DNA of 64,000 bases. It comes from Rhina ancylostomus. Lineage: Eukaryota. Below, one piece after another: positions 689 to 6,700 of the stretch (position 1 is its first letter; each line of letters begins with the position of its first letter). Made by a program: the position numbers and the translations under genes. Location: NCBI GenBank assembly GCA_030265395.1, contig JARFYF010000012.1:30503036-30567035 (forward strand), given 5' to 3'. The notes below the pieces were generated by a model. That model saw only the letters and a list, made by a program, of their open reading frames with translations, was not told the origin of the DNA and searched no databases.

Positions 689-697
689 CTTAACAGC
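689..697 (-). CDS. MYOF: Candidate 9-nt microexon (AVK), likely equivalent of the human LTEK mini-exon ~39
   Basis: tgatgctgcaaacag|GCTGTTAAG|gtaagt; perfect donor, long AG-free upstream zone with pyrimidine tract. Confidence 0.65.
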
Positions 698-1399
698 CTG
701 TTTGCAGCATCAAATGATTTATCAATACCACATTTGGGAAATAAGAAGAAAGAAAATTAAGTGATCAGAATAGTAAACATTTTCCACAAATTCAAATAGA
801 TAACATGCATTTCTGTGCAGAAAGGAATAATCAATTTTTTTTTCCTGTTCCAAGAGAAAGGGCATCATTATAACTAAACACCATTCCCGCCAAAAGAGTC
901 CTAGAGCATTGGTTTATTACATACCTCATTGGAAAGATTAATCACTAAACAGAATAATTTACACCATTGTATGCCAAACCTTGCACTGCAATGCAATGCA
1001 AATAGGCAATAGATTAACATTTCTAATTTTGGCTAACATTTTTCTACCTTCAAAATTTGGATTCAAGTTTAAATCAAATTGAATAAATAAATGTAGATCT
1101 TTGCATGCAGGTATGTAATAAACATGTACTGGTTAGTACAACCACTAATGAACTGAAAAAGGAAATTCTCCAAGAATACAACCCTATGTGTGATCATGCG
1201 CTGGGTTTTGCCAAGCTGTTTAATGAGCAGAAATTATCACCCAATTTATAGTTCAATTATGACCCCAAAAAATGATATCCCCTCCAATGGTATTTAGGAG
1301 ACTATCTTTCTAAATAATAAAAAAAACAGCCTACACAGTCTTCACTATACTTTTGTTTAAAAACCCACAGCATTATTAGTATGTTGTGTGTTTTCATAC

Positions 1400-1432: not shown

Positions 1433-2493
1433 CTGAGAAGAACACAAGACAGACAATCCTGCAGAATTTTTCATATCAATGGATACCATCTTTGATATTT
1501 TTCAGTGCAAGGATTAATAATGCTGTATAGTTTAAGACATCCTTGTTACACTTTTCTAATAGGCTCAATCTACCGACTGTGTAGGCTTGTATAGGAAATA
1601 CTGTCTTTATTGAATCAAAAGATTTTAATTACTGTATGCAAATGAGATTTGGGAGTAGCTTTTCATCTGCTGCAGGAAGAAAACTCTTCAAAAAAAAAAG
1701 TTGTTCACTGCAAAGGAGCAACATCTGCCAATAGCTAGCTTCCTGTGGGACTCCTAACATTATTTCAGAGGGAACTGATGCACTTCAAATGCAAATCTGG
1801 ATTAAAATTTATGAGCACAATATGCAAAACTGTGACTTGCTTTCACTAAAGTAGGATTTACACTCAAAATTAAGTAGATAGGAATTCTTACATGAGAAAC
1901 AGCATCATGAAATAATGAAAGAAAGCAAAAAACAAATACAAACCAGTAACACATTATTCTCTGCTTTACTTCTTTTCATGATGCTTAGTATTTCGTAGGG
2001 GAATATAGAGTGGCTGAATCATCAAGTACTTTGGGTTTCGAAGTTAAGGTAATGGCTCCAAAGCTAAGATGGCTCGAAAACTGATTTCCATAGAGATAGC
2101 AATCTCAGCCAAGGCTGAGATAAGAGCACAAGTGGTCCAATGAGCTGAAGTTTTGAAAATAAAAACAGGCAGTGCTGTCCCTTTCCAATAATCTGCTGGA
2201 AATGTTCTGTTGGTGCTGGACATGAACAGTATCAGGTTCAGCGATAAAATCTCCCACAGTTCCATTACTTCCAGAAATCATCACATGGTGAGAACTATAA
2301 TTTCCCTTTCCCCACTTTGGAACTGTATCCCAAACTACTGGTAACTTCAGATAAGGGGAAGGGAAAATTTCCATGTACTTAGAGTGGAAACAATGAACTG
2401 TTTGAGAGTCAAAATATAGACAGAAGTAGTAAACTTGTATCTTAAATGGAAAAAAAAAGTTATATCAAGCAATTAAAAATTAGTATTCTTAAC

Positions 2494-2508: not shown

Positions 2509-3007
2509 CTGACCTCTCGAGAAGAAAAAAAAAGTTGACTGTCAGATTATGTGACCAAGACCAAAACTCAGAGCAGGTACTAAGGCTAGGACACTGAAGA
2601 TTCCCAACCTGCTAAATCTTTACCAATTAAAAAAAGGTATTGTTATCTTTGGGACTCTTTAAACCATTGATTTTAGCCTTCAGAATATTAAAGTTAAATT
2701 TCTGTACAAGGAAAAATGGGGACCTCTCAAGTTTATCGCAGACACAGTATACCCGATCTTTGGACATGATTTATGGATTAGAATACTAAGTAAACATTGA
2801 CGTTACCTTGATCAAAGAAAACCTTACAAATCATTTCAATTTAGGTATTAAATATTTTCAGAGCATGTTAACTATTGGCAGACTGCTCAAGATAAAATGA
2901 GAGCAGATGGTGGTACTCCCCCTCATGTAACATACAGTGACAGAAAAAAATTCAGTACAAGCCTCCTAAACCTTGAATATTACTAACTTAGTGTTTTCCA
3001 TACATAC

Positions 3008-3064
3008 ATGCAGTGCTGATGTAGTAGTCATTTTGACGACTGCTTTGGTGAAACTGTCTACAAA
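3008..3064 (-). CDS. MYOF: MYOF alternative exon 38a orthologue (57 nt, FVDSFTKAVVKMTTTSALH)
   Basis: ctaactttcag|TTTGTAGAC...CTGCAT|gtatgt; phase 0-0; same 19-aa length, KM and terminal H as recalled mammalian exon 38a (CLSSMSTALSKMASPATVH). Confidence 0.85.
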
Positions 3065-3686
3065 CTGAAAGTTAGAATGCATGAGTGAGTTCCACCTACA
3101 GTGCTTTGACAAGTTAATCTCCTTTACCGACATTCACTCACTTCAATGTGAGTTAACATTTTTCCCTCAAATGTCTTGGATCAGATCCATTTCATTATTT
3201 ATTTAATTTTACAGGTTATATGGCAAGTCCTAGTAAACACAGCAAAAACTGAATCTTAAATAATGGAATACCTTATGCAATCCACTGCACACAGTAAGAA
3301 ATTAAATAGCATCCAGGTCACAGTGTCAAAAACCAAACTGGGATTTGTATTTGAAGTGCTTCATGAACTGGTATTTTAAATTATCCTAAATCGGTCAACA
3401 AATTGTGACGTAACATACATTGAGCTTACCATAGCATTTTTAATGAACAGCACGTGTGCATGGATTACATAGAATTATTAAACATGAACAAATCACATCC
3501 ACTTGCATACTATTTCTTCAATGTTACATCTATTCAATTTACAAGCAGATTTCATCTTGAGTAAATTGACTTGCTGCAGAATATTCAAGTTACTACTTAG
3601 CTTTTGTGGAGAGGGAATTAGGATTTCAAGCCATTCACTTAAAAAAAAATAAAGTTTTGACTGATTCCATGTAAAAAGGATATTAC

Positions 3687-3760
3687 CTGTGATTCCAGGA
3701 GAGGTTTCTGGCTGTCTTCTACATCAATAACACAATCACGAGCATTTGAAAGTAAAGATA
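3687..3760 (-). CDS. MYOF: MYOF exon ~38 (74 nt)
   Basis: [25 protein letters not shown]. Confidence 0.94.
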
Positions 3761-6700
3761 CTGCACAAATTAAGAAAAAAAATCTAAGATTACAGTATAT
3801 TTTAGAAAGCGGTAATGCCATCAAAATATCTAAAACATTTGCATGATGAATTTAAAACTAATCATTAAAATTTAGGAACTAATTTGCATGACTATACTTA
3901 AAAGTAGCCCATATAATTTTTAAAACACATTGGATATGATGCTTTAGAATCCAGATTTTCTATCTGCGTTGAAGCTAATTTTCAAAGGTCGAAATTCCTT
4001 TAGAAAGACATTTGGAAAATACCTTTAGACTGCATTCCAACAGTTTCTTTTTCAGCATAGGCATCAATCCGATATTCTTGCAAAGAATGAATTGTGCATT
4101 GTCCAACCACAGGTTTACGTCCAAACGGCCTGTGGTCAATTACCTTTATGACAATAGGAGGAGTGTACATTTCTTCTTTCGGAAGATACTAGAACCAAGA
4201 CCAGAAATGACGGATCATTTCAGATCCATTCACGTAAATTTTTGTTGATTAATACAATCATTTGTTACAGCATAAATTCAATCTAAGCTTTCAAGTACCA
4301 GTTCAGAAATTATGCATAATATAAATTTTCAATGGTAAACTTACTTTGCAAGATTAACTTCCTTAATCATTCAATGACATGTAAACCGCACAAGACTTGT
4401 TCAGATTGATTAAATCAATTTTACCTTTGATATCCTTCTGTAGAAATATATTTAACTTGTGGACTGGTGTCCAAAACTACCATATTTACAAGATGTGTGA
4501 CTTTAAATATTTCTCTGAAAATTGAAACAATTTGAATTCTCAAATTGCAATGAACAGTAGACTGATCAACAAAAGTTCCAACATCAGTTGGACAAAGCAT
4601 ACCTTTTGTTTTCAAAAAGAAAATCTTAGACAGTGAAATGCATTGATAATGTTAGTGATAATCATATTTTAAAAAAAAAATCAATTTTGATTTTGTTAAC
4701 TTACTTGCTAAAATATTCAAAAGCAGCAATTCTACCTCAATTGCTTTAGCTGCATCTCAAGTAGTACATTACAGAAGGCTAACAAAGCAGTCAAGGCAGG
4801 TATCCTTGCAAGGTCCAACAGGTTAATTATGCCCGAATTTTAAATAGAGTTCAGAGATTCAAGTGCAGAATACTTAGAATATACATATTAATTTTAGCAC
4901 AAATGACATGAATGGCAGTTTACAAATTACACTCCTTGATGTTGCTTTTTTTAAAAAAAATGCAGATCTGGCAGTAGAAGCACCAGGTTTAATCAATTAT
5001 ATAGTCATCCTATTACAGCTGGTACATTGAACTATAAGCAGTGGGAAATCCACTTCATTTGGAGAACTCTGGATTAATTCTACAATGATATAAAGATATT
5101 AGTGCAATTAAATATTTCACAAATTTAGCCTGATAACAACCTAAATGGTCCACTATTGCTCATTATTTCAATAAATGATCAAACAATATTAATTCAACAA
5201 TTTTAAAGTACCAATTGCACAGTATTCTTGAGATGCATAAACATACCACTTTCAAGAAGAGGACAGAGCGGGGAAAATTTGGACATTTTTTAAGGCTCTT
5301 GATCACAGCAGATTCCAAATACTTGTCACCACATTCCACAATGAGACTTGGGGAAGTAACAGCTGCCAGCTGGTAGCTCCTCATGTTCCGTAACCCCCAC
5401 GTTAGAATCTGCAACAACATTCTTGTTAAATAAATCTGCCTTACCATGATTAGTGGACTTGCTCAATCTTTAGTTTGAAGCAGATGGCTTAACCAGTTAA
5501 GTCAAGAAATAGCTTCTTAAAAAGGCACAGATTTTGTGCTGATGTCGACAGCTATAAATGTGCAAAAATGACAGCAACATCTGGGTCTGGATTTGTACAA
5601 TGCAGATCATGGTGTCACTAATAACCTGTTCCTTCATAAACTGGCAACTCCAGCCTTCTATGATGGAACATAGAAGGGGGATCACCTGAATGAGTGATTG
5701 ATAGTTATCTGCTATTCTTGTATTAGAAACGATTGAAGGAAGAAAAGGCTTGCTCATTCAGGTGTAAATGGTGAAATACATCATCATCCCTGGAAAAACT
5801 CAGTAGTCACATTCCCTAAAACTTGATTGAAAAAAATTAAAATTACATTTGTTTTACTCTTATACATTTCCTTTTAGTACCTGTCTTGCTCACATAAAAT
5901 GAACAGATTTTCCGTTTCCCCATTTAAAACCACTTCCTGCTTTGCCATCTGAATATGTTGATGAGGATTCTTCATAGTAATTGTTTTAACATCTTTTCAA
6001 ATACATTTTCTGCTCTTGGGGCATCATGGATGCCCCGCTGAGGCCATCAAATTTCAACTAATACCAGACAAGATTAAATTTCTGGTGACATGCCTGCTAA
6101 AATTTGCAGCCAGGCTGAGTAAAATCAAGAAGTAATTACAATTTAAAAACTACGTACAAAGGAGACTACCATCAGTGAAATGTGTTGTAAAAAGATTTCT
6201 GAATGCATGTAGAAATCCAAAATCATTTCCTTACAAACGAACAACCAAGTTCACATTTGCCCCTTTTAAAAATTAAAGACACTCTGGAGTGGAACAACAC
6301 TGGTTAAATTCAATGTTCTATTTTTTGAAAACATAAGCAGTCAAACTTATTCTGGCTAAAAATTGTCAAGAAATGAGACTTACTTCAATGGCAGTAAGCT
6401 GCACAACTGGTCTGATACCATGAGGCACCATGTACAGTGTACCTGACCGGACTGGAGGAAGAAGTGGTAAATTTGATCCATCAGGCTGTTGAAATGAAAA
6501 AGCAATAAAATGTTCACAAAACCTTTTTTGTTTTTAAAGAAAGGGAAAAGAGCATCACCAGAGTGAAAAAGTTTCAGCACTAAAAAAATATTCAGTATTA
6601 GCAAGATAGTCAGCAGATTTTAACTAGAATTATTCTTGCCTGGAGGAAAAGAAAGCTTCATAGACACAAAAGAGCCAAGAAATGCAGGAAGGTCTGACAG

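What the first reader, a model, noticed from the sequence alone, without database searches (positions are those of the whole stretch)
3001..3085. Exon 38a (calpain-cleavage exon) orthologue in a probable cartilaginous fish, with an RBFOX motif straddling its donor
Seen: 57-nt in-frame exon FVDSFTKAVVKMTTTSALH with the branch-point-like ctaac unusually close to the AG, and an exon-intron junction CTGCAT|GTATGT that contains TGCATG. Established: mammalian MYOF exon 38a and DYSF exon 40a are alternatively spliced and carry calpain sites that release a C-terminal two-C2 mini-ferlin; UGCAUG is the RBFOX site. Inference: this splicing-gated cleavage module predates the bony/cartilaginous fish split, and RBFOX binding could compete with U1 at this donor.
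Basis: partly seen in the sequence, partly recalled or inferred. Interest (0 to 1): 0.7.

Follow-up and report, generated by a model that had tools for sequence, protein, structure and literature searches.

The report
Ancient optional exon in ray myoferlin
This 57-base piece of a cartilaginous fish's myoferlin gene matches an exon that gene models of sharks, bony fish and mammals include or skip, and it likely adds a protease-sensitive loop; an RBFOX motif across its splice donor recurs in one land-vertebrate sequence, but control by RBFOX is untested.

Summary
The exon is real: minus strand 3064-3008, 57 nt, phase 0/0, in myoferlin of an elasmobranch, probably a ray. It is not new. Gene models of 16 of 19 cartilaginous fish species carry it, 8 in both forms, and a 19-residue cassette sits at the same place in ray-finned fish and amniotes. 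Orthology to the mammalian cassette is well supported; the name '38a' is recalled. TGCATG does straddle the donor. One amniote-type DNA sequence (L039) matches the ray over 81 nt, with 14 of 14 donor bases and 16 of 17 free third codon positions identical, although only 5 of 19 residues match. So the exon is likely constrained as RNA. RBFOX-U1 competition stays a guess (about 25%): 9 of the 14 bases fit U1 pairing, a Leu-His end gives the motif a third of the time, and 0 of 18 ray-finned cassettes can form it. CTAAC at -8 is not conserved and is an unlikely branch point. 'Splicing-gated cleavage' is overstated, because myoferlin without this exon is already cut by calpain. No RNA or protease data exist for this species.

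The parts
3008..3064 (-). Cassette exon A of myoferlin, 57 nt, phase 0/0, 19 aa; orthologue of the mammalian 19-aa cassette (exon 38a, name recalled)
3007..3012 (-). TGCATG (RBFOX motif) across the exon/intron junction
   Evidence: same position in L039
2999..3079 (-). 81-nt block (acceptor -15 to donor +9) alignable without gaps to amniote-type L039, 74% identical, E 3.5e-8 against the 164-kb locus
3071..3075 (-). CTAAC, branch-type A at -8; not kept in L039
2988..2991 (-). CTAA at +17..+20 of the downstream intron, same offset in L039 (QKI-like core; noticed after the fact)
3687..3760 (-). Upstream constitutive myoferlin exon (74 nt, ends in phase 0)
4023..4188 (-). Constitutive myoferlin exon in C2E (aligns to residues 1413-1465 of PDB myoferlin 9h6x)
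1433..1489 (-). Second cassette B, 57 nt, phase 0, homologous to a cassette used in shark and chimaera models; purine-rich acceptor here, possibly decaying
689..697 (-). 9-nt microexon C (AVK), homologous to the 3-aa optional insert of cartilaginous fish models (4 aa in tetrapods)

Best explanation
This is a 57-nt in-frame myoferlin exon shared by cartilaginous fish, ray-finned fish and amniotes, likely spliced in or skipped in this ray as in its relatives' gene models, and likely inserting a short amphipathic helix plus Ser/Thr-rich stretch into the C2E anchor loop as an extra protease (calpain-type) cut site. Cutting there would free the C-terminal two-C2/transmembrane mini-myoferlin, adding to, not creating, myoferlin's cleavability. 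The exon and its splice sites are likely held by selection on the RNA: splicing signals are spread over the whole exon, and the donor pairs well with U1 but lacks the usual G at -1. The TGCATG is part of that conserved donor; RBFOX may read it, but that step is the least supported.
For: Shown: frame and boundaries; gene identity; cassette in 57 of 484 proteins that have both anchor motifs: 26 chondrichthyan, 18 ray-finned, 13 amniote; +/- isoform pairs in 8 of 19 chondrichthyan species (hand count) and in Polyodon, Takifugu, Mastacembelus, crocodilians, Podarcis, Lynx, Sus and Trachypithecus. DNA conservation to L039: 39 of 57 exon bases, 14 of 14 donor bases (-5..+9; best of 40 other ray donors 9), 10 of 13 acceptor bases (best of 36 others 8). 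Third positions 16 of 17 against 0.36 and 0.42 overall (0.38-0.48 where the residue is the same) in constitutive exons compared with two ray paralogues. Helical hydrophobic moment of residues 1-12 exceeds 90% of shuffles in 25 of 28 variants. The insertion point lies just before residue 1498 of PDB myoferlin, the end of the anchor loop 1447-1498 (PMC12264198, passages; same numbering assumed). Literature: myoferlin is cleaved within an alternative exon, and cleavage of dysferlin exon 40a tolerates substitutions (PMC8650162, passages), which fits a drifting peptide on conserved DNA.
Against: No RNA evidence for this species. The isoforms are predicted gene models. 3 of 19 chondrichthyan species (Rhincodon, Hemitrygon, Amblyraja) and the unnamed skate-like Logan proteins show only the skipped form. 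The ray and mammalian peptides share only 4-6 of 19 residues, so calpain sensitivity is carried over by homology. DNA-level conservation rests on one sequence pair with a paralogue, not an orthologue, baseline, and non-synonymous differences (17 of 44 sites) exceed synonymous ones (1 of 13; Fisher p 0.044), which a uniform RNA constraint does not explain. Dysferlin exon 40a knockout mice reseal membranes normally (PMC9847081, passages), so the physiological weight of such exons is uncertain.
Confidence: 0.7

Rival explanations
1. RBFOX occlusion switch: RBFOX1/2/3 bind UGCAUG across the donor, block U1 and keep the cleavable isoform low in muscle, heart and neurons; the Leu/Val-His end is conserved because it spells the motif.
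For: Motif at the identical position in the ray and L039 although the search pattern left -4 and -1 free; L039 has a second TGCATG at +21. 26 of 26 chondrichthyan cassettes end in L-H and 13 of 13 amniote ones in V-H, both compatible with NTG-CAT. [quoted passage not shown]
Against: 0 of 18 ray-finned cassettes end in His, so the motif cannot sit at their junction. P(TGCAT given Leu-His) is 0.34 and given Val-His about 0.24 with ray codon use, so two lineages sharing it is not decisive. 9 of the 14 conserved bases are U1-pairing positions and the donor matches U1 at 9 of 11, at the top of this gene's range. His can be explained by CA for U1 plus a non-G at -1. No other (T)GCATG lies within 450 nt of the ray donor. 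The described RBFOX action at 5' splice sites is U1 recruitment from downstream sites (PMC10514471).
Confidence: 0.25
2. The cassette is mainly a structural insert: an amphipathic helix that changes the anchor-loop contact with C2F or membrane binding, with cleavage incidental.
For: Amphipathic pattern kept in 25 of 28 variants; A8 and K11 are invariant in the 33 representative peptides; the amniote peptide is nearly invariant; the anchor loop wraps C2F (PMC12264198).
Against: Mammalian myoferlin is reported to be cleaved within an alternative exon (PMC8650162 citing Piper 2017); no structure or binding test was run.
Confidence: 0.2
3. The exon doubles as the start of a short transcript (alternative first exon) that would encode a ready-made mini-myoferlin without any protease.
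For: The 15 intronic bases before the AG translate in frame to the same five residues in the ray and L039, with all 3 differences at wobble positions; four of the five recur in a chimaera model (P0176); both DNAs have an in-frame ATG further up.
Against: The 3 differences are C/T changes in a pyrimidine tract, which any acceptor tolerates; noticed after the fact; the search of representatives with the 55-aa read-through frame gave 1 hit, a multi-stretch match to the intronic part and not a ferlin by length or pattern.
Confidence: 0.06
4. In this species the exon is vestigial and never included.
For: Skate and some stingray models lack it; cassette B beside it looks decayed at its acceptor.
Against: Intact frame and both sites; 18 of 19 residues identical to the Narcine model; DNA conserved to an amniote.
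Confidence: 0.05

Closest known systems
Mammalian MYOF alternatively spliced exon 38a (Piper et al. 2017; paper not held, name and details recalled; the cleavage-in-an-alternative-exon statement seen second-hand in PMC8650162)
   Same: Same gene, same position, 57 nt, phase 0, optional in gene models; conserved S4, A8, K11, M12, H19; 81-nt DNA homology to an amniote-type copy
   Different: Only 4-6 of 19 residues identical; a second 57-nt cassette (B) follows in cartilaginous fish and was seen in no amniote protein here; cleavage untested in fish
DYSF exon 40a (PMC4230592, PMC8650162, PMC9847081)
   Same: Optional exon in the equivalent linker of the paralogue; calpain cut releases two C2 domains plus membrane anchor; peptide ends in His
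   Different: Dysferlin cleavage depends on the exon, myoferlin's does not; no exon 40a candidate was found in the ray dysferlin-like locus, which is mostly gaps there
RBFOX-regulated cassette exons such as GFPT1 exon 9 and EPB41 exon 16 (PMC10514471)
   Same: UGCAUG next to a cassette exon's donor, conserved between species
   Different: There the motif is in the downstream intron and helps U1; here it overlaps the U1 site itself, and no functional data exist
QKI-regulated MYOF exon in EMT (PMC6028027)
   Same: Optional myoferlin exon under an RNA-binding protein
   Different: That exon is 39 nt (supplement rows), not this one

Membership tests
MYOF exon 38a orthologue | Lies in a myoferlin gene, not dysferlin or another ferlin | tested here: met
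   Best PDB hit myoferlin; exon-by-exon map; 80-83% to elasmobranch myoferlins; two other ferlin paralogues lie elsewhere in G000
MYOF exon 38a orthologue | Between the last C2E-linker exon and the DWWSK exon; 57 nt; phase 0/0 | tested here: met
MYOF exon 38a orthologue | Sequence homology to the mammalian cassette | tested here: met
   81 nt ungapped, 74%, E 3.5e-8 to L039, whose peptide equals the Lynx and Sus cassettes; ray-finned cassettes bridge the peptides
MYOF exon 38a orthologue | Alternatively spliced | tested here: inconclusive
   Both forms in gene models of 8 of 19 chondrichthyan species; not observed in this species
MYOF exon 38a orthologue | The mammalian cassette found here is the exon Piper et al. 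call 38a | not testable with these tools
   Paper not held; it is the only 19-aa cassette at this place among 238 proteins of the tetrapod-centred searches
MYOF exon 38a orthologue | Confers calpain cleavage | not testable with these tools
   needs a protease assay
RBFOX-regulated exon | (U)GCAUG in or beside the exon | tested here: met
   3012-3007
RBFOX-regulated exon | Motif conserved across species at DNA level | tested here: inconclusive
   2 of 2 DNA sequences have it; impossible at the junction in 18 of 18 ray-finned cassettes
RBFOX-regulated exon | RBFOX binding and change of inclusion on perturbation | not testable with these tools
   no CLIP or perturbation data for this exon were found
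U2 branch point at CTAAC | Branch A about 18-40 nt upstream of the AG (range recalled) and YTNAY kept in orthologues | tested here: not met
   A at -8; L039 has CCAAT
Shared ancestry with DYSF exon 40a | A matching cassette in the ray dysferlin gene | tested here: inconclusive
   none in the assembled pieces; region largely gaps

The most novel reading that the evidence does not exclude
For some 450 million years (date recalled) sharks, rays and amniotes have kept an RBFOX site written across the U1 site of myoferlin's protease-site exon, inside an exon whose synonymous bases are nearly frozen, so that RBFOX physically blocks the donor and sets by tissue how much extra-cleavable myoferlin is made; ray-finned fish kept the exon and dropped the switch.
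Probability: 0.22. Interest if true: 0.62.

Novelty: new member of a known kind. Interest (0 to 1): 0.36.

Why it matters
The exon itself is ordinary and already in public gene models. Two points are worth keeping. It dates the optional myoferlin cassette to the ancestor of jawed vertebrates. And its donor and synonymous sites look far better conserved than its peptide, which points to splicing control as the conserved trait and gives a small, direct test (two-base changes in a minigene) of how mini-myoferlin output is set. If RBFOX acts by covering the donor, that would be an uncommon, sterically simple mode of RBFOX repression on a gene that matters in cancer and membrane repair. Searches of the held library found no paper with myoferlin + exon 38a + calpain, myoferlin + 38a, mini-myoferlin + cleavage site + exon or myoferlin + calpain + shark + alternatively spliced; the listings show no title on this exon. 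Subscription journals are not covered.

Tried and rejected
RNA evidence: no RNA holder listed; two contig runs of unknown kind were laid: X1 covers the exon with no other letters and may be the source sample, X2 shows no listed piece over it, so neither is used as support. The orientation of the gap-bounded piece that holds the downstream exon stays untested. More DNA orthologues: the degenerate pattern gave 1 hit in metagenome contigs, 0 in viral contigs, 0 in prokaryote genomes; no further flank of L039 was obtained. Shifted or antisense coding frame as the cause of the codon-position pattern: rejected, the two frames that would fit carry stops in both sequences. Shared RNA structure around the exon: not supported (z -0.35; different folds in ray and L039). 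RBFOX data sets: supplements of PMC12925963 (6 files; gene-level rows only), PMC10676425 (12 of 24 files), PMC4801060 (3 files) and PMC11419088 (1 file) showed no Myof splicing row; this is uninformative, and unseen files may bear on the claim. PMC6028027 (12 of 19 files): the rows shown concern a 39-nt exon. Dysferlin exon 40a in the ray: not found, region gapped. Representatives search with the read-through frame: 1 unrelated hit. Earlier findings: none returned. Papers not held: Piper 2017 and two others. Known flaws: exon ends were set by nearest AG/GT; 33 of the 42 rows were used for codon and acceptor counts (28 with a single open frame for codons); cassette B was entered one base off, giving the outlier of 1 among control donors; corrected by hand it scores 9 of 11 against U1 and 9 of 14 against L039, which leaves the maxima unchanged.

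Full report
Observation. On the minus strand, 3064..3008 is a 57-nt stop-free frame, FVDSFTKAVVKMTTTSALH, between AG and GT. The upstream exons (4188-4023, 3760-3687) end in phase 0 and the downstream exon begins in phase 0, so the exon can be added or dropped without a frameshift. TGCATG spans 3012-3007 and CTAAC 3075-3071, with its branch-type A at -8. The stretch is single-copy in G000 by DNA search.

Gene and organism. The exon at 4188-4024 hits PDB myoferlin best. Chimaera and ray myoferlins map exon by exon over the window and its flanks. Summed tblastn identity is 80-83% to 10 of 10 shark and ray proteins, 75% to chimaera and 67-71% to 4 bony vertebrates. The cassette is 18 of 19 identical to the Narcine model and the upstream exon has the DAY motif of ray proteins, so a ray is likely. 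A dysferlin-like gene (C52) and a third ferlin (C62) lie elsewhere.

The exon is annotated and old. Of 513 proteins gathered by three homologue searches and two cluster look-ups, 484 had both anchor motifs and 57 carried the cassette: 26 from cartilaginous fish, 18 ray-finned, 13 amniote. By hand count, 16 of 19 named cartilaginous fish species have a model with it, 8 have both forms and 3 only the skipped form. In the tetrapod-centred searches 13 of 238 proteins have it (mammals, birds, crocodilians, a lizard). These are predicted models; that RefSeq builds them on RNA-seq is recalled. A profile from bony vertebrates alone ranks the ray peptide first of 102,002 windows, an amniote-only profile sixth.

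DNA evidence. A degenerate pattern matched the window once (0 in 100 shuffles) and one metagenome contig, L039. L039 holds an AG..GT exon whose peptide equals the Lynx and Sus cassettes. It aligns to the ray without gaps over 81 nt, from -15 to +9 (E 3.5e-8). The donor is identical at 14 of 14 bases (best of 40 other ray donors: 9), the acceptor at 10 of 13 (best of 36: 8). Codon positions 1, 2 and 3 are identical at 7, 15 and 17 of 19. The pattern fixed many second positions but left third positions nearly free; 16 of 17 free third positions match, against 0.36-0.42 in constitutive exons compared with the two paralogues (9 and 13 of 18 exons aligned; binomial p 1e-6 to 1e-5, and 2e-3 at a generous 0.6). 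Synonymous differences are 1 of 13 sites, non-synonymous 17 of 44 (p 0.044). Low synonymous divergence in minor-form alternative exons is a known effect (Xing and Lee, recalled). The excess at first positions is unexplained. This is one pair of sequences.

RBFOX. For: the motif recurs at the same place in L039, with a second copy at +21; all 26 chondrichthyan and 13 amniote cassettes end in L-H or V-H; dysferlin exon 40a is lowest in muscle, heart and brain (PMC4230592, passages). Against: none of 18 ray-finned cassettes ends in His; a Leu-His end gives TGCAT with probability 0.34; 9 of the 14 shared bases are U1-pairing positions and the donor matches U1 at 9 of 11, so it is not a weak target; the mechanism described in PMC10514471 (passages) is U1 recruitment from downstream sites. 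I put RBFOX control at about 0.25.

Branch point. An A at -8 is closer than the usual range (recalled), similar motifs occur at 3 of 33 constitutive acceptors, and L039 reads CCAAT. The conserved acceptor block is real, but CTAAC is not its point.

Protein level. The insert falls just before residue 1498 of PDB myoferlin, at the end of the C2E anchor loop that wraps C2F (PMC12264198, passages). Residues 1-12 have an amphipathic-helix pattern in 25 of 28 variants. PMC8650162 (passages) states that myoferlin is cleaved within an alternative exon and that dysferlin exon 40a cleavage tolerates substitutions and needs its first 11-12 residues. PMC4230592 (passages) shows myoferlin NM_013451.3 cut by calpain in vitro and cleaved in uninjured cells; PMC6770723 (passages) reports calpain-independent cleavage in breast cancer cells. 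So the exon likely adds a site and does not gate cleavage. That exon 38 carries a second, constitutive site is recalled from Piper 2017, which I could not read. PMC9847081 (passages) found exon 40a dispensable for resealing in mice. PMC7140416 was searched for passages only and added a citation.

Mechanism, by step. Shown: exon anatomy, orthology, motif position, DNA conservation to one amniote. Inferred: alternative inclusion in this species, RNA-level constraint, protease sensitivity. Speculative: RBFOX blocking U1.

Verdict. A correct sighting of a known, already annotated exon. The conserved donor and near-frozen synonymous sites are the only additions, and they make the RBFOX idea testable, not established. 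Interest 0.36.

Noticed in passing
window 1489-1433 (-): Second 57-nt phase-0 cassette (MVSIDMKNSAGLSVLCSSQ) homologous to one used in shark and chimaera models but in none of the ray models seen; its acceptor is purine-rich here, so it may be decaying in rays.
   Followed up: partly
window 697-689 (-): 9-nt microexon AVK with a strong donor and UGC triplets just before the AG (an SRRM3/4-type layout, recalled); a TGCATG lies about 110 nt upstream at 809.
   Followed up: partly
window 912-938 and 1097-1123: Inverted repeat with 27-nt arms (15 perfectly paired), 158 nt apart, folding z -3.6 (region chosen after the fact); one arm holds an AG|GTATGT donor-like site, the other a TGCATG at 1109; single copy by DNA search. 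It could mask a cryptic donor.
   Followed up: partly
L002:4802-4903 (+): The next constitutive myoferlin exon lies on the strand opposite to the rest of the gene, in a piece bounded by runs of N; probably a mis-oriented scaffold piece, not tested.
   Followed up: partly
window 3079-3065 and L039: The last 15 intronic bases translate in the exon's frame to the same five residues in the ray and L039, all 3 differences at wobble positions, with an in-frame ATG upstream in both.
   Followed up: partly
window 3007-2999 and L039: Tandem GTATGTATG offers a second GT four bases on in both sequences; use would shift the frame.
   Followed up: no
G000:C52 about 2.63-2.72 Mb (+) and G000:C62 about 3.65-3.69 Mb (-): A dysferlin-like gene (heavily gapped) and a compact third ferlin paralogue, not named by any test here.
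   Followed up: partly
P0145, P0149 (Bufo); P0140, P0141, P0146-P0148, P0157 (sturgeon and eel-like fish): Other optional inserts of unrelated sequence at the same linker position, so this loop repeatedly hosts alternative exons.
   Followed up: no
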